Origin: Burkholderiales bacterium
Lineage (GTDB): Bacteria > Pseudomonadota > Gammaproteobacteria > Burkholderiales > JAEUOS01
Length of the DNA: 64,000 nucleotides
Direction: 5' to 3'
Assembly: GCA_016790635.1 (NCBI GenBank)
Contig: JAEUOR010000060.1
Location: 1,880 to 65,879, forward strand
The notes under the pieces are model-generated. The model saw nothing but the letters and a program-made list of their open reading frames with translations, was not told the DNA's origin and searched no databases. The translations under genes were made by a program, and so were the position numbers. Positions 29,925 through 42,920 of the stretch are shown one piece after another. The first letter of the stretch is position 1, and each line of letters opens with the position of its first letter.

Positions 29925-29946
29925 TCGTCAGACCGCTTTGTGAAAA

Positions 29947-29971
29947 GGCCCGCTTCGGCGGGCCTTTTTTT
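29947..29971 (+). terminator. Rho-independent terminator, probably bidirectional
   Basis: GGCCCGC-TTCG-GCGGGCC followed by T7, 22 nt after the PEP-CTERM gene stop. An A4 run on the other side gives a U-tract for the convergent minus-strand gene ending at 30063. Confidence 0.85.
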
Positions 29972-30062: not shown

Positions 30063-31220
30063 CTATCTTCTGGTCAGCAATGCCGCGACCTTGCGCGCCA
30101 CCTCAGCAACGCCACCAACCCGGAACGCTTCCCGCACTTGCAACTGGCGCAATCGAAGGGCTGCCAGGCTGCGCCGCCACGCGGGCTGTGCGGTGAGCAT
30201 GCGCCTGGCGCCGATTGGGACACCATTAGCAGTCAGCCTCTCCATCCAAGCCGGTGCGTTGACGTTGAGAGCATAGCGCCGGTGCGCGACGATGCGGGCC
30301 TGCCTGCCAAGGTGCTGGCGCAACGTCGGGTCAGTCACGAGCCTGCTGATTGCCATTTGCCAATCGAGCGAATGCTCTGCAACTAGGAGGCCGGTGACGC
30401 CTGATTCGACACTACGTCGATACGGCGCCACGTCCGCGTAAGCGCCGGCGATCCCGCAGGCCGCGAATTCCCGGAACTTGTTGTCGGTCTTGCATCGATT
30501 CGCTTCGGTATCGCGCAGCGGCGCCAAGCCGATATCCCAGCGGCGCGATGCCTGGAACGCGACATACGTCGCGTAGTCCCTGACGTGCGGGAAATGACGC
30601 ACGCGCCGGCACGCAGCCAGGCCCGATGGCATCACCCCAGCGAACTCGAACACGACCCTTGCATCCAGGTCCAAAACAGGATGGATCAGCGGGACGAGCA
30701 CACCGAGATCGTCGATGCGCGATGGACTGCCCGCAAAACCGATGCGGATCTCACCCGTTGACCCGCCGGATTCAGACGCGACAAGTGCATCGTCGAAGAA
30801 AGTCGGCAAGACGACCACCCGGGTGCTAAATCGACCGACAAACTCAGCCAATTCAGGCGACTGGGTCAAGACCAGGGACGCGTTGGCAACTGCATGTTCG
30901 ATCGACCCACGCACGGCCGGATGGCGATAGTGATGCGCGAGCGCCGAGTCGCCATCGATGCGCCAGAAATTGTCGTCCAGATAATAGAGATAGGGGCGCC
31001 TGGCGCGGGTCAAGGTATCGACCCACGAACGCAATAGCGGCGCATCGCAGCGGACAAACAACGGCACGCCGGTCGTGCCGAGATCCGCGGGGCAAAGCGT
31101 CGCCAGGCTGGTCTTTGTCCAATGCAGTCCGCGTCGCGCACACTCCCGCAACATGCCTTCGATGATTTGCGTGGTGGCGATCTCTGCCTCGGCCACCAGC
31201 ACGATCTGCAGGTCGGGCAC
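30063..31220 (-). CDS. Glycosyltransferase-like protein (GT-B-like C-terminal half), family not recognised
   Basis: GTG start. 385 aa. Shares several collinear motifs with the central module of the 1086-aa glycosyltransferase: IRIGFAGSPSR / VRIGFAGSSAR, DIGLAPL / DIMLAPL, NKFREFAACGIAGAYADV / IKFLEITAAGAVGIYSDV. Confidence 0.6.
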   Translation of the reverse strand: MPDLQIVLVAEAEIATTQIIEGMLRECARRGLHWTKTSLATLCPADLGTTGVPLFVRCDAPLLRSWVDTLTRARRPYLYYLDDNFWRIDGDSALAHHYRHPAVRGSIEHAVANASLVLTQSPELAEFVGRFSTRVVVLPTFFDDALVASESGGSTGEIRIGFAGSPSRIDDLGVLVPLIHPVLDLDARVVFEFAGVMPSGLAACRRVRHFPHVRDYATYVAFQASRRWDIGLAPLRDTEANRCKTDNKFREFAACGIAGAYADVAPYRRSVESGVTGLLVAEHSLDWQMAISRLVTDPTLRQHLGRQARIVAHRRYALNVNAPAWMERLTANGVPIGARRMLTAQPAWRRSLAALRLRQLQVREAFRVGGVAEVARKVAALLTRR

Positions 31221-31238
31221 GTCGCGTCAGCGATGCAA

Positions 31239-32882
31239 TTAGCGAAAGATCGCGAACGGCGCCAGAACCGGCTCCGGGCGCAGCAGGCGCGGACGCGCAA
31301 TCTCGTACACTGCCACGGGGATAGGGGCGTCGCGCACAAACACGCGCACCCGCCAGCCCGGAAACAGGGGACCCAGCACCTCGCTCAGCATGAATTCGGC
31401 GGGTTGAAACGGATCGAGGTTCGCAAGCGGCAACATGGTCTGTGCGATGATTCGCTCATCGTGGGACACAATCTCGATCCCCACCACACCCGCGCGCGCG
31501 CGCAACAGAGGCCGTATCGCGAACCCCAGGCAGCTGAGTGTCTGCTGCCGACTTTCAATCCGGTACTCGCGAAATGGCACCGTTCGCAAATCTACGCTCA
31601 ACTGCAGACGCCACGCATGTCCATCGCGAAACCGCCCCTCGGTGTATGCACGCAGTCCGTTGTAGCCCGGCGCAATTGCGTCCCACAGAGGGTCATGGCG
31701 CCTGAGCCAGACCATCAGGCGCTGTTGCAATGACCAGCGACCGGCGATGGCCTGCGCCATGAGATTGCCGACGACATCGCCGGCATCTCGCCAATCAGCA
31801 GCATCGCGCACAGCGTCCGCAGAGTTCGCCTCGGCGGCGTGGCGATGGGCTTCCTCTTCCCGCGCCCGGTACCAGGCGAGCAATCCGTTGGCAGCCTCGA
31901 GTTCGGTATCTATGAGCGAGGCGCGCATTCGCTCCCGCTCCGCGGACAATAGTTGGTCGTGCAGACGCCGATTTTCTTCGTGAGCGCCGGCGAGAACTTC
32001 CACCCTGCCCGTCTGCGCGGCTATGCTCGTCCTGACTTCTGCCAGTTCAGAACGCAAGTCTTCAGCCAGTTTTTCCCCTCTGAGCAAATGATCGTTGATC
32101 ATTGCCTGCAGAGCGCGCCCGAGAGCCTCCACCCCGGCACTCTCGCGGCGCTCGGCGACGTCGAGCCGATTCTGCAATGCCTCGATTCGCTTCGCCGCGT
32201 GCGCCATTCCATCGCTCAGGTCCGCTGCCCGCCGCCTTGCGATGTAGGCGGGCTCGACGAAGGCGAGGCTGCCGTCGCCGGTGACCTGCGCAGACAGCCC
32301 GGTCCCGCTGTTGGGCTTCCAAGCCACCAGGTGATAGACGATTTGATCGCAGACGTCGAGCCTTTCCCGACGCAGTTGGCGCTGCCGCTCAGGCGACAGG
32401 CCGCGATAGTCGGGAAAATAGAAGAACTCCATGTGCACGAGCCTCAGGTCGACAGCCGCAGAGTTGCCGCCGGAGTCAGCCAAGCCCCATTGGAGCGCAT
32501 GCGGATGACGATACTCATCGAGGTCGATCGCGACATTCGAGCTTGTGGTCCAGAAACGCGGCGTGTGCTCGTTGAATGCGCCGAGATGATAGGGATTGGC
32601 GAGGCTGAGCTTCTGCTCATTGTAGGGAGCCACGATGCAGATGGCGGCGCCATGTCGGCACACCCGGTAGATCTCCCTGATCGCATGCATCAGGTCGCGG
32701 ACGTGCTCAAGGCTATGGGAAGCGACGAGGCAGTCGACACAATCATCCGCCAAAGGCAGATCCGCATCCAGATCGGCAACGATATCCACGCCCGCCGCCG
32801 GGCTGCGATCCAGGCCGATGAATCCCTCCTCCTTGCGGGCACCGCAGCCCAGATCTATTCGAACCGGCATTCGGCTGCTCAT
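31239..32882 (-). CDS. Class I SAM-dependent methyltransferase with a central coiled coil and an unknown C-terminal domain
   Basis: N-terminal methyltransferase motifs (IDLGCGARKEEGFIGLD, LVASHSLEHV). About 130 aa of Ala/Glu/Arg/Leu-rich heptad-like sequence (AAKRIEALQNRLDVAERRES...AWYRAREEEAHRHAAEA). About 170-aa beta-rich C-terminus. The ATG overlaps the upstream stop (ATGA). Confidence 0.75.
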   Translation of the reverse strand: MSSRMPVRIDLGCGARKEEGFIGLDRSPAAGVDIVADLDADLPLADDCVDCLVASHSLEHVRDLMHAIREIYRVCRHGAAICIVAPYNEQKLSLANPYHLGAFNEHTPRFWTTSSNVAIDLDEYRHPHALQWGLADSGGNSAAVDLRLVHMEFFYFPDYRGLSPERQRQLRRERLDVCDQIVYHLVAWKPNSGTGLSAQVTGDGSLAFVEPAYIARRRAADLSDGMAHAAKRIEALQNRLDVAERRESAGVEALGRALQAMINDHLLRGEKLAEDLRSELAEVRTSIAAQTGRVEVLAGAHEENRRLHDQLLSAERERMRASLIDTELEAANGLLAWYRAREEEAHRHAAEANSADAVRDAADWRDAGDVVGNLMAQAIAGRWSLQQRLMVWLRRHDPLWDAIAPGYNGLRAYTEGRFRDGHAWRLQLSVDLRTVPFREYRIESRQQTLSCLGFAIRPLLRARAGVVGIEIVSHDERIIAQTMLPLANLDPFQPAEFMLSEVLGPLFPGWRVRVFVRDAPIPVAVYEIARPRLLRPEPVLAPFAIFR

Positions 32883-35800
32883 GCCTGCTCCGCCGCCATC
32901 GACCTTAACCTGGCGCGCAAGCGTTCCAGCGTATCCGCGAGTACCCGCCCGCTGCGGCCGTCAGCCCCTGCCTCCGCCTGGGTTGCAGGATCGGGACATC
33001 GCTGAGCGGCATCCCGATACATGCGGAATAGCGCGCCGGCAACGACGTCCTCGGTCGCCTCGGACTCGACGATTGTTCTGGCCAGAGCCAGTCGCCTCGC
33101 GCGTTCGCCGTCGTCCATGCGCAAAGCCTCGACCAGTCCTGCAAGAATGGCATCGGCGCTGTTGTCGCCAATGAGCACCCCGCACCGGGACGAGAGCACA
33201 TCTCCGATTCCGCCGACCGCTGGTGCGACGACCAATCTGCGCGCCGCCATCGCCTCGAGGACGACTTGCGGAAGAGATTCCCAGTCACTGGCGCACAGGA
33301 CCACATCGACATCGGCAAACATGGCCGTCGGGTCCGATACGAAACCAGTCAATCGAAGTCGCTCGCCGATACCGGCGTCGCGGGACGCGTCCAGACACGC
33401 CTGGACATAATCGGGGAAAAAGTGGTTATAGCCAACCAGACGTAGTTCGACCTCGATGCCGTGTAACTGGCGCAATTGGCCGACTGCCTGGATTGCCTGC
33501 AGTTGCCCCTTGCGCGCCTGGAGTGTCCCGAAAACACCAACGACCGGGACCTCCCGATCCCGACGCGGGCGTTCACCGATCTGAAAGTATGCAGCCGGCA
33601 CCGGCGATGGAATGCGATACGCGGGCGAACCCAGGACTTTCGACCAAGCGTTGGCATACCGAAATGAATCCGAGTGGATGCCATCACAGTGCGACCATGC
33701 CACTGCCGCGTCGCTGGATGTAGCGTATAGCGAGGACACGTGGGGAACCCCTGCACGGCGGCATGCTTCGCCGACCTCGCGCATCAGAGTCACGCTGTGT
33801 ACCAGCGAGATGTCGCGTGCATTCAACCAGCGCCACAGCTCTGCGATACAGCCATGGTCGAGCTGACGCTGATCTTGCACTTCTGTCTCAACCAAGAACG
33901 GCAGATATTCGACCTCGATTCCTGCCGCACGCGCGATGCGCGGCACTTCGCCATCCACCCCTTTGGAATTGAGAGGCAGGACCAGCACCGTGTCGAACGA
34001 GTATCGCTGCGCCAGTTGTGCATGGCGCAAGAGATGGTTTTCCCCTCCCCCAAGAAAAGGGCTATGGCAAAAGTACGCAATCCGGGCCCTGCGTGACTCC
34101 AGGCGTCGCTTGAGGCTTGCCCGGAAAGCTGCAGCATCAAGAGCCGCACCCAGCTGCCGCGCTCGCGACTCGCTGAGAAAATCCGCTTCGACCTTGCGCA
34201 GTGCTGCCCGCAGCATCGCAACCCTGCCGGCCACGCCAGCGGCGACCGCGGCGAGAATTGCATCCCGCCACTCTTCCGGCGAGGGGCCGCACTTGATGCC
34301 ATCCAGACCATGGGTCACTACGCCATTCGGCTCGACATCGGAATAGATGCCGACAGCACCCGCAGCCGTGATTTCCAGAAACTTGATCGGACATTTTGCC
34401 TGCTTGGCCCTTCGCTCCGTCATCAGCGGAGCCAACATGATGTCGAATCCGCTTGTAGTGAGCCGATCGAGGTACTCCCCGTAACTGAAAGTGAACTCCT
34501 CACACTCCCACGGCGACTCGATCTGTTCGAGACCGGCTGGCCTGAATCCCCAAAAGCAGAACTCTGCCGCACTACCGAGCGATCGGCTGACGTCCACAAT
34601 CGCGGGCCAGAGCCTCTCCAGTTCCTCACGCCGGGCGCTACTGCCGGCAAAGCCAATGCGGACCCGCTTGGAAGGTGCCGTCGCAGTCGACTTGACATAG
34701 GCCTTGCGCCTGGCCTCGTCAAGACGAAAGGAAGGGATGCTGGTCTGCAGCTGAACCCAGCGAGGGTTGAGGCCCGCGATCGAATCTACGATCAGGCGCG
34801 AATAACCCAGCGCGAGGTCCGCGTGGCGAATCTGCACCTCAAGGGATGCGCGATAAGGCGCTCCCGGGGCAAGATACGAAAATTCCTCACCCAGTTCATG
34901 GAACCACAAGAGGTCGTCATCCATGAGGAACACGACCGCTTTGCCGGCACGACGCGCGCAGCGGGCGAGCTCTTCCGCACGTGGTTCAATGGTCCTGTGC
35001 AACAGCAAAATATCGCACGCGGCCACATGGGATTCTTCGGCCTGGCTCTGTGGAACAAATGTGAATGCAAAACGAGGTTCGAGCCACGCCGCATTGTCGA
35101 GAATCGTTATGTCAAGTGTCGTGTCGAAATGCGCCTTCACCACCATCACATGCAACTTGCGCGACGGCGGGAGGATCTCCGGAAACCTGTCGCGATGCCT
35201 GGTGCGAAACGGTCCGATCTGCTGCCTCCAAATCGCTGCCGTCTTTTCCCCGCCGAGATGTCGGAGATGGCCGAGGCCGTCGATCCGATAGTCAGGAAAG
35301 CTCGCGGGCCGGAGTAGATGATCCCGGGGCAAGGCCATGTGCACACGCGCAGCATACGAGTCATAGTGCACGGTACGTCCCAAAGAGTCCGCGACGGCGG
35401 CATCGACCAGGCTTACGACCTCCGGAACATAAAGAAACCTTACGTGGCGAGCCCAGCGCAGCCAAAGGTCCCAATCGCACAACCGGCGCATGACAACATG
35501 GGCGTCATAGCCGCCGAAGCGCTCGAAAACGGCGCGCCGATGAAGAATGCTGTTATTGGCGATGTAATTCGACTCGACCAGGCGACTGTAGTTGAACGGA
35601 GAAGCAAGCTGGTACTCGGCATCCGCCTGTCGAAACACGCAGATTCCGTAGGCCACCTCGTAGTTCGGCTCCCGTTCCAGTGCGCCGACCAGGGTATCCA
35701 GCGCCCCCTGAGTCCAGCGATCGTCGTCAAACTGATAAGCGCAAAACTCCCCGCGCGCCATCGCAAGACCTTCGTTGACCCGCAATGCAGGCAGGCCGCT

Positions 35801-36139
35801 GTTTGAATCATGACGAACGTGCACGACGCGCTCATCGGCACGGACGTAGTCCGCAATCAGATCTTCGGTTCCGTCTGTCGAACCGTCGTCCATGACCAGC
35901 AATTCGAACGAGCCGAACGATTGAGAGAGTACCGACTCCATCGCCTGCGCCAGCAGGCCGCTGCGTGCGCGACAGAAGGTCGGCAGGATGACCGATACCT
36001 TGGGGTTCTCGATGAGGCACTTGCGTCGGTTGACCCTCGCACCCGCAAGAAAGTCGGCGGCGCGCATTTCCCGATGCGGTGAAAAAGTAGGGCCAGCCTC
36101 AGGAAAGTCGTCGAGGGCGGGTTCAGTGCCAGTTGCCAT
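32879..36139 (-). CDS. Three-module glycosyltransferase (GT2 + GT-like middle module + GT4/GT1-type C-terminal module)
   Basis: N-terminal GT2 signature (VSVILPTFCRARSGLLAQAMESVLSQSFGSFELLVMDDGSTDGT). Middle module paralogous to the 385-aa protein. C-terminal GT-B module (PVVGVFGTLQARKGQ...CASDWESLPQVVLEAMAARRLVVAPAVGG). Confidence 0.8.
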   Translation of the reverse strand: MATGTEPALDDFPEAGPTFSPHREMRAADFLAGARVNRRKCLIENPKVSVILPTFCRARSGLLAQAMESVLSQSFGSFELLVMDDGSTDGTEDLIADYVRADERVVHVRHDSNSGLPALRVNEGLAMARGEFCAYQFDDDRWTQGALDTLVGALEREPNYEVAYGICVFRQADAEYQLASPFNYSRLVESNYIANNSILHRRAVFERFGGYDAHVVMRRLCDWDLWLRWARHVRFLYVPEVVSLVDAAVADSLGRTVHYDSYAARVHMALPRDHLLRPASFPDYRIDGLGHLRHLGGEKTAAIWRQQIGPFRTRHRDRFPEILPPSRKLHVMVVKAHFDTTLDITILDNAAWLEPRFAFTFVPQSQAEESHVAACDILLLHRTIEPRAEELARCARRAGKAVVFLMDDDLLWFHELGEEFSYLAPGAPYRASLEVQIRHADLALGYSRLIVDSIAGLNPRWVQLQTSIPSFRLDEARRKAYVKSTATAPSKRVRIGFAGSSARREELERLWPAIVDVSRSLGSAAEFCFWGFRPAGLEQIESPWECEEFTFSYGEYLDRLTTSGFDIMLAPLMTERRAKQAKCPIKFLEITAAGAVGIYSDVEPNGVVTHGLDGIKCGPSPEEWRDAILAAVAAGVAGRVAMLRAALRKVEADFLSESRARQLGAALDAAAFRASLKRRLESRRARIAYFCHSPFLGGGENHLLRHAQLAQRYSFDTVLVLPLNSKGVDGEVPRIARAAGIEVEYLPFLVETEVQDQRQLDHGCIAELWRWLNARDISLVHSVTLMREVGEACRRAGVPHVSSLYATSSDAAVAWSHCDGIHSDSFRYANAWSKVLGSPAYRIPSPVPAAYFQIGERPRRDREVPVVGVFGTLQARKGQLQAIQAVGQLRQLHGIEVELRLVGYNHFFPDYVQACLDASRDAGIGERLRLTGFVSDPTAMFADVDVVLCASDWESLPQVVLEAMAARRLVVAPAVGGIGDVLSSRCGVLIGDNSADAILAGLVEALRMDDGERARRLALARTIVESEATEDVVAGALFRMYRDAAQRCPDPATQAEAGADGRSGRVLADTLERLRARLRSMAAEQA

Positions 36140-36140
36140 G

Positions 36141-36647
36141 TCACTCTACCCGCAGCACCCGCCGGGTATCGCAACGCAAGACCTCCTTGCCGGACAGGAT
36201 CAAGATGAATAGGCGGTGGCTGCCTGGTGCGATATTCAAGGCAATCCTTTCAACCTTGAATCCACCGCGATCAAGCGCCGGATTGCCAAGCGCAGCCCCC
36301 AGCCCGTTGCGCACATAGCTTTCGCCAGAGACGAAGAACGCGGGATCTGTGCCGACCTGCACCGCTCTGGCCGCGCCAATAGTCCCGGCGCGCACATCCA
36401 CAACGGCCCATCCCGCCAGTGCCAGGCTGGCCCCGCGCCGCAAAGGCATCGGAGAATTCTCGAACAGGGCGAAGTTCAACGCATCAATCTCACATCGCCC
36501 GCCGTCCTTGACAGGCAGGCCGGCGAATGATGGCGGCATCGAGCGGCTGAATTGCCTCGAGTCGGCGGCACCGGACGATCCCGGCACCAGGGCCGCCAGC
36601 GCACAAATCACTATGCAAACCAATTTATGGAAGAAAACCCGTCTCAT
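36141..36647 (-). CDS. Hypothetical secreted protein (168 aa)
   Basis: Good SD (AAGGA). Sec-type signal MRRVFFHKLVCIVICALAALVPGSSGA. The stop lies 1 nt before the ATG of the three-module glycosyltransferase. No family recognised. Confidence 0.55.
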   Translation of the reverse strand: MRRVFFHKLVCIVICALAALVPGSSGAADSRQFSRSMPPSFAGLPVKDGGRCEIDALNFALFENSPMPLRRGASLALAGWAVVDVRAGTIGAARAVQVGTDPAFFVSGESYVRNGLGAALGNPALDRGGFKVERIALNIAPGSHRLFILILSGKEVLRCDTRRVLRVE

Positions 36648-36782
36648 TGATCATCCTTTCTACATCTGTCGAAGAACACCACCTGCGACCAGGCGGTGCC
36701 CGGGAAAATTGCCGCGTGGCCACGATCTCGCGCTGGAGCACCGCGGCGATCAAAGGACCCATCTCGCGATTGCCCATTACGA

Positions 36783-37556
36783 TCACATCGCCGCTGGCGA
36801 AGTCCTGACGCCGGACGCTCCAAACGCGAGATATTGATCGACCACATCGGACGCCCGGCCATCGCTGACAACCTCACCCCGGTCGATCCAGACCACGCGC
36901 TCGCACATTGTCTTGAGATGTTCCAGGTTATGGGTTGCGAAAACCAGTATCTTCCCTTGCTCCATGAAGGACTGCATGCGGCGCGCCGCCTTGTCTGCGA
37001 AGCGGACATCGCCAGCCCCCATGACCTCATCGATCAGGAGGATTTCCGGATCAACGCTGGTCGAGATCGAGAACGCCAGGCGGATGAACATGCCTGCCGA
37101 GTAAGTGCGAACCGGGTAGTCCAGGAATTCTCCCAGATCCGTAAATTCCGCAATCGCCGGCATCTTCGCCTCGATTTCCTCCTGCGTCATGCCAACCAAC
37201 ATGCCGCGAATGCGAATGTTGTCCCAACCGGATTGATTCATTTCGAAACCGGTAGCGAACTCAAACAGTGGGCATACGCGTCCCCGAACCACGACAGCCC
37301 CCTCGGTCGGTGGGTAGATTCCTGCCATTACCTTGAGCAGGCTTGATTTTCCGGCCCCGTTGAGGCCAATCAACCCGACCCGCTGGCCCTGCGATATCTT
37401 GAGGCTCACCTGACGCAAGGCCTGCACCGAGAAGCCCGATTTTCGTTCTCGACCCGACACGCGGTCGACGAGCCATCCCCGGAGGCCGGCCTGGGTATCG
37501 ATTCGGCCGTCGAATCTCAGGCCGACGCCCTTGAGTTCAATCCCGATCTCGCTCAC
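36783..37556 (-). CDS. wzt: Polysaccharide ABC exporter ATP-binding protein (Wzt/KpsT/TagH type, NBD only)
   Basis: Walker A GLNGAGKSSLL, signature YSAGM, Walker B ILLIDEV. 257 aa, so no C-terminal carbohydrate-binding extension. The GTG start overlaps the wzm stop (GTGA). Confidence 0.88.
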   Translation of the reverse strand: MSEIGIELKGVGLRFDGRIDTQAGLRGWLVDRVSGRERKSGFSVQALRQVSLKISQGQRVGLIGLNGAGKSSLLKVMAGIYPPTEGAVVVRGRVCPLFEFATGFEMNQSGWDNIRIRGMLVGMTQEEIEAKMPAIAEFTDLGEFLDYPVRTYSAGMFIRLAFSISTSVDPEILLIDEVMGAGDVRFADKAARRMQSFMEQGKILVFATHNLEHLKTMCERVVWIDRGEVVSDGRASDVVDQYLAFGASGVRTSPAAM

Positions 37557-38350
37557 AGCAGGTACACCACGCGTCGATCAAGCCGGATCGTCACAGCAAG
37601 CGCCAGCAACCACGTGACCGCAAGATACGTCAGGCAGAATGCATAACTCGACGACGCGGCCCACCCGCCTTCGAGTATCGGCGTACGAATGACATCGAGC
37701 AGATAGTGCCCGGGATTGAACCGATACACGAAGTCAAGCCCTCTTTCCTTGAGCAAGTGAACCGGGTACATGATCGGTGTCACGAAAAAGAGCACCTGAA
37801 AAATGCTCGAAGTTACGTGCGCGAGGTCACGAAATCGCGTCCCAAGATAGGCAAAGATGGTGATATGCGCCAGCGCCGTAAGCAGAACCAGCACGAGCCC
37901 TGGTACAGACAGTATCCAGCCCAATGGCTGAAATTTCCCGAACCAGAGTTGAATCGGCGGCAGAATGGCGAGACCGGCAGCCAAGACCAGTGCCTGGGTC
38001 ACCAGACAACGTAGCAGGTAAATCTGCTTCGGATAACAGAATTGCTTGATGTATCCCTCGGCGTTGACGAACGCATTCGCGCCGTCCACACAAGTCGCCA
38101 CCAGAAAGGCCCAAAGAACCACCCCCGCAGTCAGGAAAGGGACGGCCACTTCCACTGGCTGCGCAAACATCAGGCCGAAGAAGACACCGGCACCGACTAC
38201 GAAGAATCCGGTGTAAATCAGCAGCCAAAGCGGCCCGAAAAAGGAGCGTTGAAAGCGAAACCGAATGTCCTGGCAGCCCAGAAAAGTCCACACGCGCCAA
38301 TCGGCGAGCGCCTTTTGCCAGTCGGCGACCAGCCTCGCAGCTTCAGGCAT
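37553..38350 (-). CDS. wzm: ABC-2 type polysaccharide exporter permease (Wzm/KpsM type)
   Basis: 265 aa with about 6 TM helices. Typical ABC-2 N-terminal region (RFQRSFFGPLWLLIYTGFFV). Adjacent and coupled to the NBD gene. Confidence 0.85.
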   Translation of the reverse strand: MPEAARLVADWQKALADWRVWTFLGCQDIRFRFQRSFFGPLWLLIYTGFFVVGAGVFFGLMFAQPVEVAVPFLTAGVVLWAFLVATCVDGANAFVNAEGYIKQFCYPKQIYLLRCLVTQALVLAAGLAILPPIQLWFGKFQPLGWILSVPGLVLVLLTALAHITIFAYLGTRFRDLAHVTSSIFQVLFFVTPIMYPVHLLKERGLDFVYRFNPGHYLLDVIRTPILEGGWAASSSYAFCLTYLAVTWLLALAVTIRLDRRVVYLL

Positions 38351-38862
38351 CAGACTGTACCCGCGGGCTTCCGGAGCGCGAGTCCCATGCGGACCATGCC
38401 TGCACTTCGGGACTCCTCGAGGAATCCGGCGCGCGAATACACGTGAATCGCTCGTGCATTTTCGGACTTCACGTCAAGATAAACGTATTGAAGTCCAAGA
38501 TCGCGTGCGCACCATTCGAGGAGTGCGGCACACGCCTTGGCGACATAGCCCTGGCCGGACATACCGGGCGCCGCGAGAAACCTCCCGATTTCCGCCTGCC
38601 TTCGAACGGGCTCGACACGGTACACGGCGGCCTGCGCCACCGCGATCCCGCTGCACTCGGCGACGAACATGAAATCGTCATCGCGCTCAAGATAATCCTC
38701 AAACCAGCGTAGATGATCTGCGCGAGGAATGACGTCCGAATGCTTGAACCAAACCCGCGCGTCGTCGCGGTTTCGCCAGCGCAGGAGCATGTCGATGTCC
38801 TTGCGTTCGACAAGGCGCAGCGACACCGGACCTTCCGTAACCAGCCGTACCGCTGGCTTCAT
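38350..38862 (-). CDS. GNAT family N-acetyltransferase
   Basis: 170 aa. RimJ/RimL-like layout with an acetyl-CoA-binding region (FLAAPGMSGQGYVAKA). The ATG overlaps the aminotransferase stop (ATGA). Confidence 0.8.
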   Translation of the reverse strand: MKPAVRLVTEGPVSLRLVERKDIDMLLRWRNRDDARVWFKHSDVIPRADHLRWFEDYLERDDDFMFVAECSGIAVAQAAVYRVEPVRRQAEIGRFLAAPGMSGQGYVAKACAALLEWCARDLGLQYVYLDVKSENARAIHVYSRAGFLEESRSAGMVRMGLALRKPAGTV

Positions 38863-39992
38863 CGGGCGTAGCGCAGGACGAGCGAAACCACGCGGCGAAC
38901 ATCGTCGAACCCGAGTCCGAGATGCATCGGAAGGGAGATCAATTCATCACTCGCACGCGCGGCTTCCGGGCAGGTACCCTGGGCGTAGGCATACATGCGA
39001 TAGAGTGTGTTGTCCCGATAATGGACACCCGGATACACCTGATGCTCATTGAGGGCAAGCATCAGTGCATCGCGATTGCCGACCCGTATCTGAAACAGGT
39101 GGCAGGATGACTCGCAGCCGGGCACGACATCCACGGAGCGCACCGCGGCCTGGCCTGCCAGGCCCGCGCGGTACCACGATGCCAATTGACGCCGGTATGC
39201 GTTATCTCTTTCGACGTAGCGCAACTGCACCAGGCCGATTGCGGCCATGATCGAATTGCCGTGGTGCTTGAATCCGACCTCCTCGACGTCGTACATCCAC
39301 TTGTAAGCGCCGCCCCCCGTGGTCCGTGTGTAGGTATCCTTGTTGATGCCTAGCCAGGCGAGTTTGCGCACCAATTCATCATGCTCGGCCAGACGAAAGC
39401 AGATCATCCCGGAATCGGCCGTTGGCAGGTTCTTGACCGCCTGAAAACTGAATACAGTCGCGTCCGCTTCGCCCCCTATGTGCCGCCCAAGCCAGCGAGT
39501 GCCGGTCATGTGTGCGGCGTCAATGACGAGCTTTAGTCCGCGTTCCGAGCATATTTTGGCGATCTCATCGAGTCTGCCGGTATTGCCCCCCATGCCGACA
39601 AATACGACGGCACGGGTGCGCGGCGTGATCCGCTGCAGCACGCTCTGCGGGTCGAGGCACAAGCTGGCATCGATATCGGCAAACACCGGCCGCAGGCCGT
39701 TGTACAGAATCGCGTGATTGGTCGAGACGAAAGTGAGGGGAGTCGTCACCACCTCGTCACCGTCCACCCATCCCCCTGCCCCCTTGAGCACATTGATAGC
39801 CAAATGAAGCCCGGCGGTCGCCGAGGAAAGAAAGTGCCCGTAGGGGAGGCCGGTGTAGTCGCACCATGCCTTTTCGAAGGCAACTGTCTTGAAGCCAAGC
39901 CCGGTCCAGCCCTTTTCGAGACATTCACGGATTTCGGTGAGGCACTCTTCGATGCGGAACTGTGGAACGAAGAGCTGGATCGGGTCGCTCAA
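38859..39992 (-). CDS. DegT/DnrJ/EryC1/StrS family sugar aminotransferase (PLP-dependent)
   Basis: Family-typical sequence (VVTTPLTFVSTNHAILYNG...VFSFQAVKNL with the PLP Lys). I place the start at TTG 39992 (GGAG 6 nt upstream, MSDPIQLFVPQF...). The track start at 40100 would overlap prsT by 71 nt. Confidence 0.83.
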   Translation of the reverse strand: MSDPIQLFVPQFRIEECLTEIRECLEKGWTGLGFKTVAFEKAWCDYTGLPYGHFLSSATAGLHLAINVLKGAGGWVDGDEVVTTPLTFVSTNHAILYNGLRPVFADIDASLCLDPQSVLQRITPRTRAVVFVGMGGNTGRLDEIAKICSERGLKLVIDAAHMTGTRWLGRHIGGEADATVFSFQAVKNLPTADSGMICFRLAEHDELVRKLAWLGINKDTYTRTTGGGAYKWMYDVEEVGFKHHGNSIMAAIGLVQLRYVERDNAYRRQLASWYRAGLAGQAAVRSVDVVPGCESSCHLFQIRVGNRDALMLALNEHQVYPGVHYRDNTLYRMYAYAQGTCPEAARASDELISLPMHLGLGFDDVRRVVSLVLRYAR

Positions 39993-40029
39993 ATCAATCT
40001 CCGTAAACGCCGTTGCCGATGATTCAGCG

Positions 40030-42807
40030 TCACTCGCGAAGCAGGCGCTGAACTTCCGCTTGTCCCTTGAAGCGAGCGCCCAAAGCCGCCAACGCCTCAA
40101 GCTCGCGCCTCGCTTCAGCCCGCTTTCCGGCTTTGTTCAGGACAACTGCGTAATGAAGGCGAATCGGGGAATCCGGCGGCGATTTCGTCGACGCCTTCTC
40201 AAGCAAAGTCAGCGCACGACCCACATCGCCCTTGTCGACAAGCACCGATGCGAGGGTATCCATTATCGCCGGGTTGTTCGGCACGAGCTTGTAGGCACGC
40301 TCTGCCAAATCCAGCGCGTCCGGTTGCTTCAATTCACGAGCCAGCGACGCAAGATTGTTCAGGATCGCCGGATCGTTTGGCAGCAAAGCAAGCATGGCGC
40401 GGTAGTGCGCGGCCGCCGCGGAGAATTCCCGGCGCGAAATCGCGCTTTCAGCGACAAATCGACGAAATACGGTGTCGTTGGGAAATTCCTTGATGCGCGC
40501 AAGCGCGAACTGATCCGCGGCCGCCAACTTGCCCTGTGCCCCCATGACCGCGAATAACTTGATCGCGGTCTCGCTGGTGTCGGCGATCTTCATGGCACTG
40601 CGAAACGCCGCTTCGGCTTCCGCAAGTTCCTTTGTAACCAGCCGCACTTCTCCTTCCAGAACGAACCCTTGGGACGATCGAGGTTGTTCTCGCTGCAAGT
40701 TGCGTGCAAAAGCCAATGCATCGGGTGCCCGCCCTGTCCGGACATAGATAGCAACGATACGCAATTGGGCCGGAACAAAACCCGGGTTAGCACGCAATGC
40801 CTTCTGCAGGGACTCGATGGCACCACTATTGTTGCCCGCCGCTTCATGTGCATCGGCCATTCCCATATGACCGCCCATCGCGGTCGACTCTGCGGCCGCC
40901 ATTTTCCCAAACGTCACCAGCGCTTGATTGAATTCACCGGCAACAATCTGTGCCTGCCCGAGAAGGGAAGCGATGTCTGCGGATGACGGCATCGCGGCGT
41001 ACGCATTCTGCGCCGCGCTCAACGCCCGCCGCTTATCGCCCGCATCGATCAAGTGCCTCACCAGTGCCAGTCGCGGCGCAGGATCGGCAGGAGATGCCTC
41101 TACCGCCTTTTGAATCAGCGCCTCGATTTCCGCGGCAGGGGACTTTTGTGCAGCCTTGAGGCCTGCTAACGCGAGCATCGCAGGTACATGGCGAGGCTCC
41201 GCTGCCAGAACCTTCTCGAGGCGCGCCAACGCGTCCGCGCCCTTGTCTTGCGCGATATCCAGCTCCGCGAGGGACATGGCTGCCGGGAGGAAACTTGGGC
41301 TGAGGGCCACAGCATTCTCGAAGCTGCGCCGGGCGTCTGCGGTTTTTCCAGCGGCCAACAAAATCCGTCCACGCAGGTTCTGGACCATGGCATCGCGCGG
41401 GCGCTTCTTTTCCAGTTGCGTCAGGGACGACAGTGCTTTTTCGTATGATCGCTTCTCAAAATGCGCCGCGACAAGCGCAAGATCGGCGGTGATGCCGCTG
41501 TCGGTCTCGGCCATGCGCTCCAGATCGCGAGTACCCGCCTCAAATTGCCCTGCCGCCAATCGCGCAAATGCGAGTTGCAGGCGCTTCGAGGAGTCGTCCG
41601 GCTTCAGTTCAACCGCCTTGCGAAAAAAGCCCTCAGCCCGCTTGAAATCTCCCGCCTGCATGAATACTTCTCCGGCCACATGCAGCATGTCCGGATCATT
41701 CTCAATGTCGCGTAACGCCGGAGTGATGGTTTCGATCGCCCGGCTCATCTGACCCAAGCCGATATACGTAAGGGCGAGCCAACGCCGCACCGGAACAGAT
41801 TTCGAGTCAATCTGCAGCGCGCGACGGAGATGGTTCTCTGCTTCGACAAAGGCGCCAAGCCTGTAACGCAAGGCCCCGGCTAGCTGCAATACACTGAAAT
41901 CGTTTGGAAACGAGCGCAAAACCAACTGAATCCGTTCGGAAGCTTGTTGCAGATCGCCTTTGTAATATGCGACCTGCGCTTCCAGGAAAATCGTGCGGAC
42001 CTGATTAGGTAATGCACGCTTCATTTCGGCCAGTTCTGCCTCGGCCGCAGCGAAATGGGGGGATTCCGGGCTGAAGCCGGCGCGCTGAAGTCTCACGAAC
42101 ACCAGGGCGCCTCGCGCAGAAGGATCATCCTTGCGAAGCTCGAGTGCCTTGCGATAACCCTGCTCCGATTGGTCATACTGCTGAAGCGCGAACAGGACCG
42201 AGGCGCGAAGATACTGCCCGTCATAGTCGCGCGGATGCTTGGCGATGAGTGCGTCCAAGAGACTGAGCGCAGCCTTCACGTCTCCGGCGGCAAGCTTGAT
42301 ACGTGCCTCAACCAGCATTGCCAGAGGATGATCGGACTGGGTAGCCAGCCCCTCCGCGATCTCCTTCGCCGCCGAGCCCTTGTCTCCGATAGCTAGGTAG
42401 GCAAGACTGAGATATGCCTTTGCCTCCACCTTTGCAGACGGTGAGGTGAGAAGTACGCCAGCAGCTTCGTGTATCACCTTGCGCGCCTCGCCTTTCGCCA
42501 AAAGGCTGCGCAACAAAAGCGGCAGAACCTGATCTACGGGAAACTTCTCATCCTTGGCTCTGCGCAATTCAATCTCGGCTCCCGCCGGGTTCCCGGATTC
42601 AAGCAAGGCCTTCCCGAGCAGATATCTTGCTTCCGGCGAATCCGCACGGTTGGCGATCACGTTCTTTACTTCGAGAATGGCAGCAGCGTGCTCTCCTTTC
42701 GCGAGAAATTCCTTGGCCTTTTCGAGTGAGCCGGAATTGCTGGCAGGATTGCAGCCGGTCGCAGCGATACAGAAAAGCGAGGCAAACAAATAAGCCGAGA
42801 GTCGCAT
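40030..42807 (-). CDS. prsT: PEP-CTERM system TPR-repeat lipoprotein PrsT
   Basis: 925 aa. Lipoprotein signal MRLSAYLFASLFCIAATGC, followed by TPR repeats throughout. Size, architecture and locus context match the PrsT family. Confidence 0.85.
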   Translation of the reverse strand: MRLSAYLFASLFCIAATGCNPASNSGSLEKAKEFLAKGEHAAAILEVKNVIANRADSPEARYLLGKALLESGNPAGAEIELRRAKDEKFPVDQVLPLLLRSLLAKGEARKVIHEAAGVLLTSPSAKVEAKAYLSLAYLAIGDKGSAAKEIAEGLATQSDHPLAMLVEARIKLAAGDVKAALSLLDALIAKHPRDYDGQYLRASVLFALQQYDQSEQGYRKALELRKDDPSARGALVFVRLQRAGFSPESPHFAAAEAELAEMKRALPNQVRTIFLEAQVAYYKGDLQQASERIQLVLRSFPNDFSVLQLAGALRYRLGAFVEAENHLRRALQIDSKSVPVRRWLALTYIGLGQMSRAIETITPALRDIENDPDMLHVAGEVFMQAGDFKRAEGFFRKAVELKPDDSSKRLQLAFARLAAGQFEAGTRDLERMAETDSGITADLALVAAHFEKRSYEKALSSLTQLEKKRPRDAMVQNLRGRILLAAGKTADARRSFENAVALSPSFLPAAMSLAELDIAQDKGADALARLEKVLAAEPRHVPAMLALAGLKAAQKSPAAEIEALIQKAVEASPADPAPRLALVRHLIDAGDKRRALSAAQNAYAAMPSSADIASLLGQAQIVAGEFNQALVTFGKMAAAESTAMGGHMGMADAHEAAGNNSGAIESLQKALRANPGFVPAQLRIVAIYVRTGRAPDALAFARNLQREQPRSSQGFVLEGEVRLVTKELAEAEAAFRSAMKIADTSETAIKLFAVMGAQGKLAAADQFALARIKEFPNDTVFRRFVAESAISRREFSAAAAHYRAMLALLPNDPAILNNLASLARELKQPDALDLAERAYKLVPNNPAIMDTLASVLVDKGDVGRALTLLEKASTKSPPDSPIRLHYAVVLNKAGKRAEARRELEALAALGARFKGQAEVQRLLRE

Positions 42808-42867
42808 AGCTAGGCTACCGGATCAATGGGTGCATCGAACCCCGCCATCAGGGTTCCAACAGTGGCA

Positions 42868-42898
42868 GTCTTTTCCACAAATTCCCGTCTTTTTCACA
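42868..42898 (-). repeat. Imperfect 12-nt direct repeat (plus-strand GTCTTTTCCACA / GTCTTTTTCACA, 19-bp period) between a TATAAT box and prsT
   Basis: Read directly: 42868-42879 and 42887-42898, 11/12 identical. On the minus strand these read TGTGGAAAAGAC and TGTGAAAAAGAC, immediately downstream of TATAAT (42903-42908). Function unknown. Confidence 0.4.
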
Positions 42899-42920
42899 GG
42901 GAATTATACCGTCGCAGGCC

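What the first reader, a model, noticed from the sequence alone, without database searches (positions are those of the whole stretch)
30063..42807. prsT heads a 9-to-10-gene operon encoding a complete ABC-transporter-dependent glycan pathway inside a PEP-CTERM locus
The gene order on the minus strand is PrsT lipoprotein, DegT aminotransferase, GNAT, Wzm, Wzt, a 135-bp gap, a secreted 168-aa protein, a three-module glycosyltransferase, a methyltransferase with a coiled coil, a GT-like protein, and the terminator. Gaps between genes are 37 nt or less, or they overlap, except for the one 135-bp gap.

Established knowledge: Wzm/Wzt together with a multi-domain polymerising GT and a chain-terminating modifying enzyme is the architecture of ABC-transporter-dependent O-antigen/glycan assembly, as in E. 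coli O8/O9a. By contrast, exosortase loci are usually described with Wzx/Wzy- or Wza/Wzc-type EPS machinery.

Inference: the PEP-CTERM system's signature TPR lipoprotein is co-transcribed with, and possibly functionally tied to, a lipid-linked homopolymer-type glycan containing an N-acetylated amino sugar. Such a defined-length glycan is a plausible candidate for the still unknown acceptor or partner of exosortase-processed proteins.
Basis: partly seen in the sequence, partly recalled or inferred. Interest (0 to 1): 0.68.

Follow-up and report, generated by a model that had tools for sequence, protein, structure and literature searches.

The report
O-antigen-type glycan cassette lodged behind prsT
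The nine-gene array is real, but eight of its genes are a widespread, mobile O-antigen-type gene cassette that lies next to the PEP-CTERM gene prsT only in this bacterial lineage, so the adjacency is weak evidence for a functional tie.

Summary
Nine minus-strand genes (prsT, DegT, GNAT, Wzm, Wzt, a 168-aa exported protein, a 1086-aa three-module glycosyltransferase, a methyltransferase with a coiled coil, and a 385-aa GT) are packed with gaps of 37 nt or less, except one of 135 nt. They end at a bidirectional terminator.

Genes 2-9 are collinear, at 36-70% identity, with O-antigen-type clusters of Cupriavidus taiwanensis and Aeromonas dhakensis. There they sit between rmlBDAC and wecA.

In 76 of 78 informative species-level PrsT loci, prsT directly follows prsK-prsR. 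None of the 80 loci examined carries this cassette or any Wzm. Seven other cassette loci carry no PEP-CTERM genes. Only one close relative shows the same PEP-CTERM-side junction.

The pathway is not complete in the operon. No rml genes or adaptor GTs were found in the window. A WecA-like gene lies 6 kb upstream. Wzt lacks the carbohydrate-binding module of O8/O9a-type systems.

prsT need not head the unit. Two same-strand genes precede it, after a strong terminator.

Verdict: a new member of a known kind, in a lineage-specific rearranged locus. Interest is modest.

The parts
40030..42807 (-). prsT, the XrtA/PEP-CTERM system TPR lipoprotein (925 aa)
   Evidence: TIGR02917 scores 703 bits against a cutoff of 312, full length. 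There are TPR Pfam hits. The lipobox Cys19 is invariant. The nearest homologue outside this organism is only 42% identical.
38859..39992 (-). DegT-family sugar C4-aminotransferase (377 aa)
   Evidence: PF01041 scores 269 bits. Nearest solved relatives are TlmJ (1e-53) and ArnB (4e-50). It is 70% and 63% identical to the gene that follows rmlC in the Cupriavidus and Aeromonas O-antigen-type loci.
38350..38862 (-). GNAT N-acyltransferase (170 aa)
   Evidence: Acetyltransf_3 and Acetyltransf_1 hits. Weak PseH-like match. 37-39% identical to its positional counterparts in L086 and L087.
37553..38350 (-). Wzm, the ABC-2 permease (265 aa)
   Evidence: PF01061 scores 30.3 bits against a cutoff of 26.9. 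NF050109 Wzm/RfbD gives 3e-47, below its equivalog cutoff. 41% identical to the Wzm of L086 and L087.
36783..37556 (-). Wzt, the ABC ATPase in its short form (257 aa) without a C-terminal carbohydrate-binding module
   Evidence: NF050108 Wzt/RfbE gives 4e-73. The best solved relatives are mycobacterial RfbE (260-263 aa, 3e-63), TarH, and only the nucleotide-binding domain (residues 37-238) of the 404-aa Aquifex Wzt.
36648..36782 (-). 135-nt intergenic gap between wzt and the 168-aa gene
   Evidence: Read directly. I saw no hairpin followed by a T-run. AAGGA lies before the ATG.
36141..36647 (-). 168-aa exported protein, a member of a conserved uncharacterised family encoded directly upstream of this GT family
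   Evidence: It has a signal peptide. Homologues at 41-47% identity lie directly upstream of the GT in L085, L089, L090 and L091; I read those four as lipoproteins. The L084 copy is 86% identical. Two Cys residues are invariant. No Pfam, NCBIfam or PDB relative was found.
32879..36139 (-). 1086-aa three-module glycosyltransferase, the putative polymerase
   Evidence: GT2 at residues 46-240 and GT4 at 860-1043. The middle part, ~400-625, is paralogous to the 385-aa protein. Full-length homologues at 48-55% identity occur in Cupriavidus, Aeromonas, Paraburkholderia, Burkholderia and Solibacter.
31239..32882 (-). 547-aa methyltransferase + long coiled coil + C-terminal beta-sandwich domain, the candidate chain modifier or terminator
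   Evidence: AlphaFold gives pLDDT 83.6, with a methyltransferase domain at 1-190, a helix at 212-352 and a beta domain at 425-547. The profile hits sugar O-methyltransferases and coiled-coil proteins. The spacer varies from 111 to 313 residues among 42 homologues, and the closest relative has a 55-residue insertion in it.
30063..31220 (-). 385-aa single-module GT-B-like glycosyltransferase
   Evidence: Weak Glyco_trans_1_4 match. The family profile matches the C-terminal halves of TarM, PglA and WlaC. 36-40% identical to its positional counterparts in L086 and L087. The family has 10,221 representatives, often as repeated modules in larger proteins.
29943..29971 (.). Bidirectional intrinsic terminator shared with the convergent PEP-CTERM gene
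   Evidence: Read directly: AAAAAAAGGCCCGC-cgaa-GCGGGCCTTTT.
42808..43033 (-). 226-nt region upstream of prsT. It contains the hairpin GAGGGGCA-agg-TGCCCCTC (42922-42940) and a TATAAT (42904-42909) with no -35 element that I could recognise
   Evidence: Read directly. No sigma-54 match at 2 mismatches or fewer, and no sigma-70 consensus hit here.
43034..44047 (-). GT2 glycosyltransferase gene upstream of prsT on the same strand
   Evidence: PF00535 scores 51 bits. Called as 337 aa. It is not orthologous to the adaptor GT2s of L086 and L087.
43993..44793 (-). Lipoprotein with an alpha/beta-hydrolase fold
   Evidence: Abhydrolase_1 gives 7e-8. Lipobox FFLVAGC.
44770..44798 (-). Strong intrinsic terminator (11-bp stem, T8) after the autotransporter-beta-domain gene. 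It is the nearest clear upstream transcription stop
48816..49943 (-). WecA/MraY-family polyprenyl-phosphate sugar-1-phosphate transferase, a possible initiator lying outside the array
   Evidence: PF00953 scores 99 bits and the WecA model gives 2e-22. Only 30% identical to the WecA of L086.
25256..28716 (+). prsK-prsR two-component pair, convergent with the array
   Evidence: TIGR02916 scores 839 bits and TIGR02915 scores 729 bits.
28865..29924 (+). Sigma-54-like promoter (28865-28880) and a PEP-CTERM protein gene (28962-29924)
   Evidence: TGGCACGACAGATGCT has one mismatch to the consensus. PF07589 PEP-CTERM motif at residues 293-315.

Best explanation
**Identity of the cassette (shown by synteny and homology).** Genes 2-9 (DegT, GNAT, Wzm, Wzt, small exported protein, three-module GT, methyltransferase-coiled-coil protein, single-module GT) form a conserved cassette. 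It has probably moved horizontally and is of the ABC-transporter-dependent O-polysaccharide type.

**Likely mechanism (inferred).**
- A polyprenol-linked primer is made by an enzyme encoded elsewhere, possibly the WecA-like gene 6 kb upstream.
- The primer is extended at the cytoplasmic face by the GT2 + GT-B-like + GT4 polymerase and its paralogous single-module GT.
- A 4-amino-4,6-dideoxy-type sugar, made by DegT and N-acylated by the GNAT, is incorporated.
- The methyltransferase, held at the far end of a ~140-180-residue coiled coil, methylates the chain. It may cap it and so limit its length.
- A short Wzm/Wzt transporter flips the chain to the periplasm without recognising a cap through a Wzt carbohydrate-binding module.
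- A conserved periplasmic protein of unknown role acts there.
- The glycan is then most likely ligated to lipid A-core or another acceptor by an enzyme not encoded in the array.

**Relation to prsT.** In this Burkholderiales lineage the cassette lies 37 nt downstream of prsT. The locus is rearranged, so that prsT has left its usual position directly after prsK-prsR. Read-through co-transcription with prsT is plausible. The adjacency is lineage-specific. It is best read as the clustering of polysaccharide genes, not as a general coupling between the PEP-CTERM system and this glycan.
For: **Gene content and packing.**

**Collinearity with O-antigen-type loci.** Cupriavidus taiwanensis (L086) and Aeromonas dhakensis (L087) carry rmlB-rmlD-rmlA-rmlC-DegT-GNAT-Wzm-Wzt-GT-MT-X-GT2-GT2-(epimerase)-WecA. 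Identities to the window proteins are:
- DegT: 70% and 63%
- GNAT: 39% and 37%
- Wzm: 41% and 41%
- Wzt: 57% and 58%
- GT: 51% and 51%
- MT: 48% and 36%
- X: 36% and 40%

The core of the cassette is also found on metagenomic contigs L088, L089 and L091, with variable extra genes. L085 and L090 carry the small protein plus the GT without an adjacent Wzm/Wzt.

**Linkage is not general.**
- In 76 of the 78 loci with a PrsR hit, the order is epsB2-prsK-prsR-prsT, with 40-285 nt between prsR and prsT.
- 0 of 80 loci have tblastn hits for DegT, GNAT, Wzm, the GT, the MT, X or the 168-aa protein.
- 0 of 80 loci match a Wzm family HMM at E<=1, while the window itself scores 2e-133.
- The nine weak 'Wzt' hits fall in ORFs of other ABC kinds. 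Two, tested against NCBIfam, are LolD/MacB/DevA-type. The rest are 533-700-aa fused or double-ATPase ORFs, judged from size and neighbours only.
- The usual neighbours downstream of prsT are TviB/TviC-like sugar-nucleotide enzymes, a lytic transglycosylase and a trypsin-like protease.

**Terminator-type protein.** AlphaFold architecture, coiled-coil profile hits and a spacer that varies from 111 to 313 residues, with a 55-residue indel in the closest relative. The literature describes an extended coiled coil as the marker of polymerase-terminator systems (PMC11231755).

**Short Wzt.**

**Same junction in a relative.** In L084 (GT 86% identical) the array is again followed by the PEP-CTERM gene and prsR.
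Against: - No transcript data exist. Co-transcription and the promoter are inferred.
- The rml genes needed for the presumed DegT substrate have no tblastn hit anywhere in the 64-kb window. The sugar identity is therefore uncertain.
- In every characterised terminated O-polysaccharide system, Wzt carries a CBM (PMC11231755). Its absence here means the methyltransferase may not be a terminator at all.
- The 80 comparison loci are the best-scoring of at least 471. They are nearly all Betaproteobacteria, so more distant PrsT loci were not examined.
- The cassette is physically nested between prsKR, the PEP-CTERM gene and prsT. That would also fit real functional integration in this lineage.
Confidence: 0.62

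Rival explanations
1. PrsT is functionally tied to the cassette, and the defined-length, lipid-linked glycan is the acceptor or partner of exosortase-processed PEP-CTERM proteins.
For: - The prsT-DegT gap is 37 nt and no terminator-like site was found in it.
- The cassette is nested between the PEP-CTERM gene with prsKR and prsT.
- The PEP-CTERM-side junction is the same in a relative whose GT is 86% identical.
- The exosortase acceptor is still unknown. [quoted passage not shown]
Against: - The linkage is absent from 80 of 80 other species-level PrsT loci.
- Seven other cassette loci carry no PEP-CTERM system genes.
- The cassette sits in classical O-antigen positions, next to rmlBDAC and wecA, in Cupriavidus and Aeromonas.
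- A general acceptor should co-occur with the system, and this one does not.
- No paper in the library mentions PEP-CTERM, exosortase and wzm together.
Confidence: 0.07
2. This is lineage-specific functional integration without any covalent role. The lineage has replaced the sugar-precursor and EPS genes that usually follow prsT with this ABC-transporter cassette. The cassette's glycan is now the matrix polysaccharide, or one of them, co-expressed with the PEP-CTERM system.
For: - In canonical loci prsT is immediately followed by sugar-nucleotide genes: TviB-like in 38 loci at about 130 nt, and TviC-like in 26.
- Here DegT occupies that position, at 37 nt.
- The whole block from about 29 to 58 kb shares a lower GC3 (0.64-0.78) than the housekeeping genes (0.82-0.90).
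- Other EPS genes lie in the same block: Wzx, a Wzy_C-domain protein, a priming transferase and AsnB.
Against: - The array contains no outer-membrane export component for a free EPS.
- The cassette's homologues sit in O-antigen-type loci.
- There is no expression evidence.
- No sigma-54 promoter lies upstream of prsT at 2 mismatches or fewer.
Confidence: 0.2
3. The cassette is an incomplete, non-functional remnant of a transferred O-antigen cluster. It has lost its rml genes, its adaptor GT2s and its wecA.
For: rmlBDAC and the two adaptor GT2 genes of L086 and L087 have no counterpart in the window. The WecA-like gene is only 30% identical and lies 6 kb away.
Against: - All eight ORFs are intact, and their start and stop codons overlap in a way that suggests translational coupling.
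- The genes are identical across assemblies from at least three sequencing runs.
- They are 81-98% identical in a diverged relative, with no frameshifts.
- rml genes are often encoded elsewhere in a genome. PMC11231755 gives an example in which the host's own rmlBDAC copies supplied the precursor for a cloned cluster.
Confidence: 0.08

Closest known systems
O-antigen-type clusters of Cupriavidus taiwanensis (CP016950, locus L086) and Aeromonas dhakensis (JAABKG010000008, locus L087). They are annotated but, as far as I could find, not characterised biochemically.
   Same: The order DegT-GNAT-Wzm-Wzt(short)-GT(~1075 aa)-MT(~500 aa)-X(~400 aa) is collinear with the window, at 36-70% protein identity.
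   Different: - There the cassette is preceded by rmlBDAC and followed by two GT2 genes and wecA. Here it is preceded by prsT and followed by a terminator.
- Those two loci have no gene for the small exported protein.
- They have no PEP-CTERM system genes nearby.
E. coli O8/O9a (= Klebsiella pneumoniae O5/O3) WbdA-WbdD-Wzm-Wzt polymerase-terminator system
   Same: A multi-module cytoplasmic polymerase, a separate protein with an N-terminal methyltransferase and an extended coiled coil of variable length, and Wzm/Wzt export (PMC11231755 and PMC3482155).
   Different: - Wzt here lacks the C-terminal carbohydrate-binding module that gates the export of capped chains.
- No WbdD structure appeared among the sequence matches or the 50 fold matches listed.
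- The C-terminus is a beta-sandwich domain, not an amphipathic helix.
- The sugars differ: an amino-sugar pathway instead of GDP-mannose.
CBM-less Wzm/Wzt exporters: mycobacterial galactan RfbD/RfbE and, from my own knowledge, Klebsiella O2a
   Same: A short Wzt of about 250-260 aa. The best solved-structure match is RfbE, at 3e-63. The best NCBIfam models are the galactan Wzm and Wzt.
   Different: From my own knowledge, those systems are described without a coiled-coil terminator protein. Scores here are below the equivalog cutoffs (161 against 380, and 246 against 400), so this is not an orthologue.
Canonical betaproteobacterial PEP-CTERM regulatory locus epsB2-prsK-prsR-prsT (Zoogloea, Aquincola, Dechloromonas, Accumulibacter)
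   Same: All four genes are present in the window and score above their equivalog or subfamily cutoffs. A PEP-CTERM gene with a sigma-54-like promoter is also present.
   Different: - prsT is on the opposite strand, 11.3 kb from prsR. In 76 of 78 loci it lies 40-285 nt downstream on the same strand.
- The usual downstream neighbours (TviB/TviC-like enzymes, a transglycosylase, a protease) are replaced by the cassette.

Membership tests
ABC-transporter-dependent O-polysaccharide (Wzm/Wzt) assembly cluster | ABC-2 permease (Wzm) and a cognate ATPase (Wzt) encoded together | tested here: met
   - PF01061 scores 30.3 bits against a cutoff of 26.9.
- NF050109 gives 3e-47 and NF050108 gives 4e-73.
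- The two genes overlap by 4 nt.
- RfbE, TarH and Aquifex Wzt are the best solved relatives.
ABC-transporter-dependent O-polysaccharide (Wzm/Wzt) assembly cluster | Cytoplasmic multi-module glycosyltransferase able to polymerise on a lipid-linked primer | tested here: inconclusive
   Three GT modules are recognised by homology: GT2, a GT-B-like middle module and GT4. Polymerase activity itself cannot be tested here.
ABC-transporter-dependent O-polysaccharide (Wzm/Wzt) assembly cluster | Synteny with recognised O-antigen loci (sugar-nucleotide genes, wecA) | tested here: met
   Collinear with L086 and L087, which are flanked by rmlBDAC and wecA. In the window itself the rml genes are absent.
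ABC-transporter-dependent O-polysaccharide (Wzm/Wzt) assembly cluster | Initiating polyprenyl-phosphate transferase, and a ligase to lipid A-core, belonging to the pathway | tested here: inconclusive
   A WecA-like gene (48816-49943) and a gene for a protein with a Wzy_C (O-antigen-ligase) domain plus weak C-terminal TPR matches (46043-48823) lie upstream of prsT, outside the array. Whether they serve this pathway is unknown.
Polymerase-terminator, chain-length-controlled systems (E. coli O8/O9a WbdD type) | Modifying enzyme placed at the distal end of an extended coiled coil | tested here: met
   - Methyltransferase domain at 1-190 and a helix at 212-352, with further helices to 417.
- Coiled-coil profile hits.
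- The spacer varies from 111 to 313 residues.
Polymerase-terminator, chain-length-controlled systems (E. coli O8/O9a WbdD type) | Carbohydrate-binding module on the C-terminus of Wzt that recognises the cap | tested here: not met
   Wzt is 257 aa. [quoted passage not shown] The Wzt proteins of L086-L091 are 246-250 aa.
Polymerase-terminator, chain-length-controlled systems (E. coli O8/O9a WbdD type) | Homology to WbdD itself | tested here: not met
   No WbdD chain appeared among the sequence matches, the profile matches listed, or the 50 fold matches listed. Only generic class I methyltransferases did.
Polymerase-terminator, chain-length-controlled systems (E. coli O8/O9a WbdD type) | A non-reducing-end cap (methyl or phosphomethyl) on the glycan | not testable with these tools
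   This needs a structural analysis of the glycan.
XrtA/PEP-CTERM system protein PrsT | Full-length match to TIGR02917 above its cutoff, and a lipoprotein signal | tested here: met
   703 bits against a cutoff of 312, residues 7-907. Cys19 is invariant.
XrtA/PEP-CTERM system protein PrsT | Genomic association with prsK, prsR and PEP-CTERM genes | tested here: met
   PrsK, PrsR and a PEP-CTERM gene lie within 15 kb. However, prsT is convergent with them rather than in the usual tandem order.
   0 of 80 loci by tblastn and by the Wzm HMM. 0 of 7 other cassette loci carry PEP-CTERM genes. Only the close relative L084 shares the PEP-CTERM-side junction.

The most novel reading that the evidence does not exclude
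In this Burkholderiales lineage prsT has been captured into an O-polysaccharide-type operon. The PEP-CTERM sorting system is therefore expressed with, and acts on or through, an ABC-transporter-exported, ruler-limited glycan.

The cassette family would itself be an undescribed variant of the polymerase-terminator pathway. Cap recognition by a Wzt carbohydrate-binding module would be replaced by something else. [quoted passage not shown]
Probability: 0.1. Interest if true: 0.7.

Novelty: new member of a known kind. Interest (0 to 1): 0.3.

Why it matters
If the linkage were functional, it would offer a tractable candidate for the unknown partner of exosortase-processed proteins. That is an open question dating from 2006. 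The comparative evidence makes this unlikely.

What remains useful is narrower:
1. A clear example of a mobile O-antigen-type cassette inserted into the regulatory core of a PEP-CTERM locus.
2. A widespread cassette family that pairs a coiled-coil methyltransferase with a Wzt lacking a carbohydrate-binding module, and with a conserved, uncharacterised periplasmic protein. This departs from the rule, stated in recent literature, that terminated O-polysaccharides are exported by Wzt proteins carrying such a module.

Tried and rejected
- **20-sequence PrsT alignment.** It was too divergent for the locus search. A 7-sequence alignment worked.
- **Metagenome scan.** A scan of metagenome contigs with the window PrsT found no close relative. 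The extent of the linkage within the clade therefore rests on one 9.6-kb contig, L084. That contig does not reach prsT.
- **Weak 'Wzt' hits.** Weak tblastn hits in 9 PrsT loci looked like counter-examples. They fall in ORFs of other ABC kinds. Two, tested against NCBIfam, are LolD/MacB/DevA-type. The rest are 533-700-aa fused or double-ATPase ORFs, judged from size and neighbours only.
- **C-terminal domain of the methyltransferase protein.** I tested whether it is a Wzt-type carbohydrate-binding module. The model is confident (pLDDT 92), but it gives only weak, generic jelly-roll matches with TM <= 0.43: nucleoplasmin core, GOLD domain and the BC2L-C lectin N-terminal domain. I rejected it as evidence.
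- **Homology to WbdD.** No WbdD appeared among the matches listed for the 547-aa protein or for the 707-aa methyltransferase-kinase at 55902-58025.
- **Mobile-element scars.** I looked for IS elements or long repeats flanking the cassette and found none.
- **Base composition.** GC3 does not separate prsT (0.64) from the cassette (0.67-0.73). It therefore cannot date or orient the rearrangement.
- **Literature.** A search for PEP-CTERM + exosortase + wzm returned nothing.
- **The 5.5-kb prsR-prsT gap in L059.** It looked like a similar insertion. A 930-aa ORF directly follows prsR there. From its size and position I take it to be a second PrsT-like gene, but I did not test this.

Full report
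**Observation**

Gene calls made independently on other assemblies of the same organism give the same nine genes.

Family searches give the following:
- **PrsT:** TIGR02917, 703 bits against a cutoff of 312, full length.
- **DegT:** a DegT/DnrJ aminotransferase.
- **GNAT:** an N-acyltransferase.
- **Wzm:** an ABC-2 permease whose best model is Wzm/RfbD.
- **Wzt:** an ABC ATPase whose best model is Wzt/RfbE.
- **168-aa protein:** a signal peptide and no family match.
- **1086-aa GT:** GT2 at residues 46-240 and GT4 at 860-1043.
- **547-aa protein:** an N-terminal methyltransferase domain.
- **385-aa protein:** faint GT4-like matches.

The junctions are, in order: a 37-nt gap, overlaps of 4, 1 and 4 nt, a 135-nt gap, a 1-nt gap, a 4-nt overlap and an 18-nt gap.

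A bidirectional terminator lies at 29943-29971, between the array and the convergent PEP-CTERM gene.

The coiled coil is supported by an AlphaFold model with a single helix over residues 212-352. It is also supported by profile matches to rootletin, tropomyosin and SMC.

The 'third module' of the large GT is real. Its residues ~400-625 are paralogous to the 385-aa protein. That protein's family profile matches the C-terminal halves of GT-B enzymes such as TarM and PglA.

**Context**

The window comes from a Burkholderiales metagenome-assembled genome. Housekeeping genes (pepN, parC, parE, uup) occupy 1-22 kb. A tRNA-Arg gene lies at 22916-22990.

From 23.6 kb onward lies a polysaccharide and PEP-CTERM region:
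- the TIGR03013 priming transferase, PrsK and PrsR on the plus strand;
- a sigma-54-like promoter and a PEP-CTERM gene;
- the convergent nine-gene array;
- further upstream on the minus strand: a GT2, a lipoprotein hydrolase, an autotransporter-beta-domain protein, a protein with a Wzy_C domain and weak C-terminal TPR matches, a WecA-like transferase, AsnB, a Wzx flippase, a methyltransferase-kinase and hydr1_PEP.

**Does prsT head the unit?**

The nearest strong terminator upstream of prsT is at 44770-44798. Two same-strand genes lie between it and prsT.

The 226-nt region before prsT holds a hairpin with no T-run and a TATAAT with no -35 element that I could recognise. It has no sigma-54 match.

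prsT may have its own promoter, or it may be the third gene of an 11-gene unit. The sequence cannot decide between these.

**What the cassette is**

The 1086-aa GT has full-length homologues at 48-55% identity in Cupriavidus, Aeromonas, Paraburkholderia, Burkholderia and Solibacter. More distant full-length homologues (35-37%) occur in Chloroflexi. By contrast, the nearest PrsT from another organism is only 42% identical.

In Cupriavidus taiwanensis and Aeromonas dhakensis the neighbourhood is a textbook O-antigen-type locus. Its order is rmlB-rmlD-rmlA-rmlC-DegT-GNAT-Wzm-Wzt-GT-MT-X-GT2-GT2-(epimerase)-WecA.

All eight window genes except the 168-aa one have collinear counterparts there, at 36-70% identity.

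The core of the cassette recurs on metagenomic contigs L088, L089 and L091 with variable additions (a sulfotransferase, an acyltransferase). L085 and L090 carry the small protein and the GT without an adjacent Wzm/Wzt. None of these seven loci has PEP-CTERM system genes.

**Is the prsT linkage general?**

I retrieved 80 species-representative PrsT loci with 10-kb flanks, 1.5 Mb in all.
- In 76 of the 78 with a PrsR hit, the order is epsB2-prsK-prsR-prsT on one strand, with prsT 40-285 nt after prsR.
- None has a tblastn hit to the window's DegT, GNAT, Wzm, GT, MT, X or 168-aa protein.
- An HMM built from six cassette Wzm proteins finds only the window's own Wzm, even at E<=1.
- Nine weak Wzt hits fall in ORFs of other ABC kinds. 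Two, tested against NCBIfam, are LolD/MacB/DevA-type. The rest are 533-700-aa fused or double-ATPase ORFs, judged from size and neighbours only.

The usual genes after prsT are TviB- and TviC-like sugar-nucleotide enzymes, a lytic transglycosylase and a trypsin-like protease.

Only L084, a 9.6-kb contig whose GT is 86% identical, shows the same junction of cassette, PEP-CTERM gene and prsR. It does not reach prsT.

One caveat applies. The 80 loci are the best of at least 471 confirmed and are nearly all Betaproteobacteria. Haft et al. already noted that prsT is tandem with prsKR in only 4 of 13 proteobacterial genomes (PMC1569441).

It is met at the level of this lineage.

**Completeness**

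The rml genes and adaptor GT2s of the reference loci have no counterpart anywhere in the window. The WecA-like gene is 30% identical to the reference WecA and lies 6 kb upstream of prsT. The array encodes no ligase or outer-membrane step. The pathway is therefore not complete within the operon.

**Mechanism**

DegT is closest to TlmJ and ArnB, which are C4 aminotransferases acting on 4-keto sugars. In the reference loci it follows rmlC. A 4-amino-4,6-dideoxyhexose, N-acylated by the GNAT, is the most likely special sugar. This is an inference.

The 547-aa protein has the polymerase-terminator hallmark: a catalytic domain at the far end of a long coiled coil.
- The spacer varies from 111 to 313 residues among 42 homologues whose flanking domains are conserved.
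- The closest relative has a 55-residue insertion inside the coil.
- The literature treats such coiled coils as molecular rulers and as markers of this assembly strategy (PMC11231755; PMC3482155).

However, that same literature states that every characterised terminated O-polysaccharide is exported by a Wzt carrying a C-terminal carbohydrate-binding module.
- Here, and throughout the cassette family, Wzt is 246-257 aa with no such module.
- No WbdD structure appeared among the sequence or fold matches listed.

The system therefore works like an O8-type polymerase-terminator system in architecture. It fails one defining test of that family.

**Verdict**

The gene array is real and tidy. Its core is a probably mobile, O-antigen-type ABC-transporter cassette of a known kind that has landed behind prsT in a rearranged locus. 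The proposed functional tie to exosortase substrates is not excluded, but the comparative data give it no support. Interest is modest (0.3).

The family-level oddities may deserve separate attention. They are the Wzt lacking a carbohydrate-binding module alongside a coiled-coil methyltransferase, and the conserved periplasmic protein.

Noticed in passing
window 36141-36647 (-); L085:9266-9952, L089:8336-8884, L090:6526-7101, L091:9410-9997, L084:977-1483: The 168-aa 'secreted protein' belongs to a conserved, unannotated family encoded directly upstream of the ~1080-aa GT in distant bacteria. Members share 41-47% identity over a ~135-aa domain, two invariant Cys residues, and GWA..D, GLG..L.N..LD and LLRCDT motifs. 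I read four of the homologues as lipoproteins. No Pfam, NCBIfam or PDB relative was found. A dedicated periplasmic partner is not part of the textbook ABC-transporter-dependent pathway.
   Followed up: partly
window 55902-58025 (-): A 707-aa protein carries a class I methyltransferase domain (residues 150-257) and an APH-type kinase domain (400-597). This is the same domain pair as the O9a terminator WbdD. It is encoded next to a Wzx flippase, not next to Wzm/Wzt. No sequence match to WbdD structures was found.
   Followed up: partly
window 28865-28880 (+), upstream of 28962-29924: A sigma-54-type -24/-12 element, TGGCACGACAGATGCT (one mismatch), lies about 80 nt upstream of the PEP-CTERM protein gene. 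This fits the RpoN- and PrsR-dependent expression described for pepA in Aquincola.
   Followed up: no
window 31239-32882 (-); L084:4739-6547: The coiled-coil spacer of the methyltransferase protein differs by a clean 55-residue insertion, after residue 337, between this organism and its 81%-identical relative. It ranges from 111 to 313 residues across 42 homologues. This is the behaviour expected of a chain-length ruler.
   Followed up: yes
window 31242-31688 (-) (residues 398-547 of the 547-aa protein): The C-terminal domain is a confidently modelled beta-sandwich (pLDDT 92) with no convincing solved-structure relative. The best matches have TM <= 0.43. It sits where WbdD has its membrane anchor and polymerase-recruitment region.
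   Followed up: yes
window 44770-44798 (-) and 43993-44793 (-): A very strong intrinsic terminator (11 pairs, T8) follows the autotransporter-beta-domain gene and overlaps the start codon and signal-peptide coding region of the next gene, a lipoprotein hydrolase. The T-run encodes the Phe-Phe-Leu of the lipobox region.
   Followed up: no
window 44849-45892 (-): A 347-aa protein has a signal peptide and an autotransporter beta-domain (PF03797, 2e-19) but almost no passenger domain. It ends in ...NLGLRF.
   Followed up: no
window 46043-48823 (-): A 926-aa membrane protein combines a Wzy_C (O-antigen ligase/polymerase) domain with weak C-terminal TPR-like matches. It lies immediately downstream of the WecA-like gene and is a candidate ligase or polymerase for one of the locus glycans.
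   Followed up: no
window 22916-22990 (+) and 23600-58000: A tRNA-Arg(CCT) gene marks the boundary between the housekeeping genes (GC3 0.82-0.90) and the polysaccharide/PEP-CTERM block (GC3 0.64-0.78, apart from the priming-transferase gene next to the boundary, at 0.85). prsT has the lowest GC3 of all, at 0.644.
   Followed up: partly
L001-L080, 0-7 kb downstream of prsT: In related Betaproteobacteria prsT is typically followed by TviB-like (38 loci, ~130 nt downstream) and TviC-like (26 loci) sugar-nucleotide enzymes, a lytic transglycosylase (41), a trypsin-like protease (54) and HprK-related kinase A (24). Having prsT lead into sugar-precursor genes is therefore the norm, only with different genes.
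   Followed up: partly
L059:4430-7222 and L059:9911-12709: Roseateles saccharophilus appears to carry two PrsT-sized genes. A 930-aa ORF lies directly after prsR, and a second lies 5.5 kb further on. The first was not tested against the PrsT model.
   Followed up: no
window 30063-31220 (-): The family of the 385-aa GT-B-like protein is large (10,221 cluster representatives at E<=1e-3). It often occurs as two or three repeated modules inside proteins of 700-3600 aa, yet current Pfam models barely detect it.
   Followed up: partly
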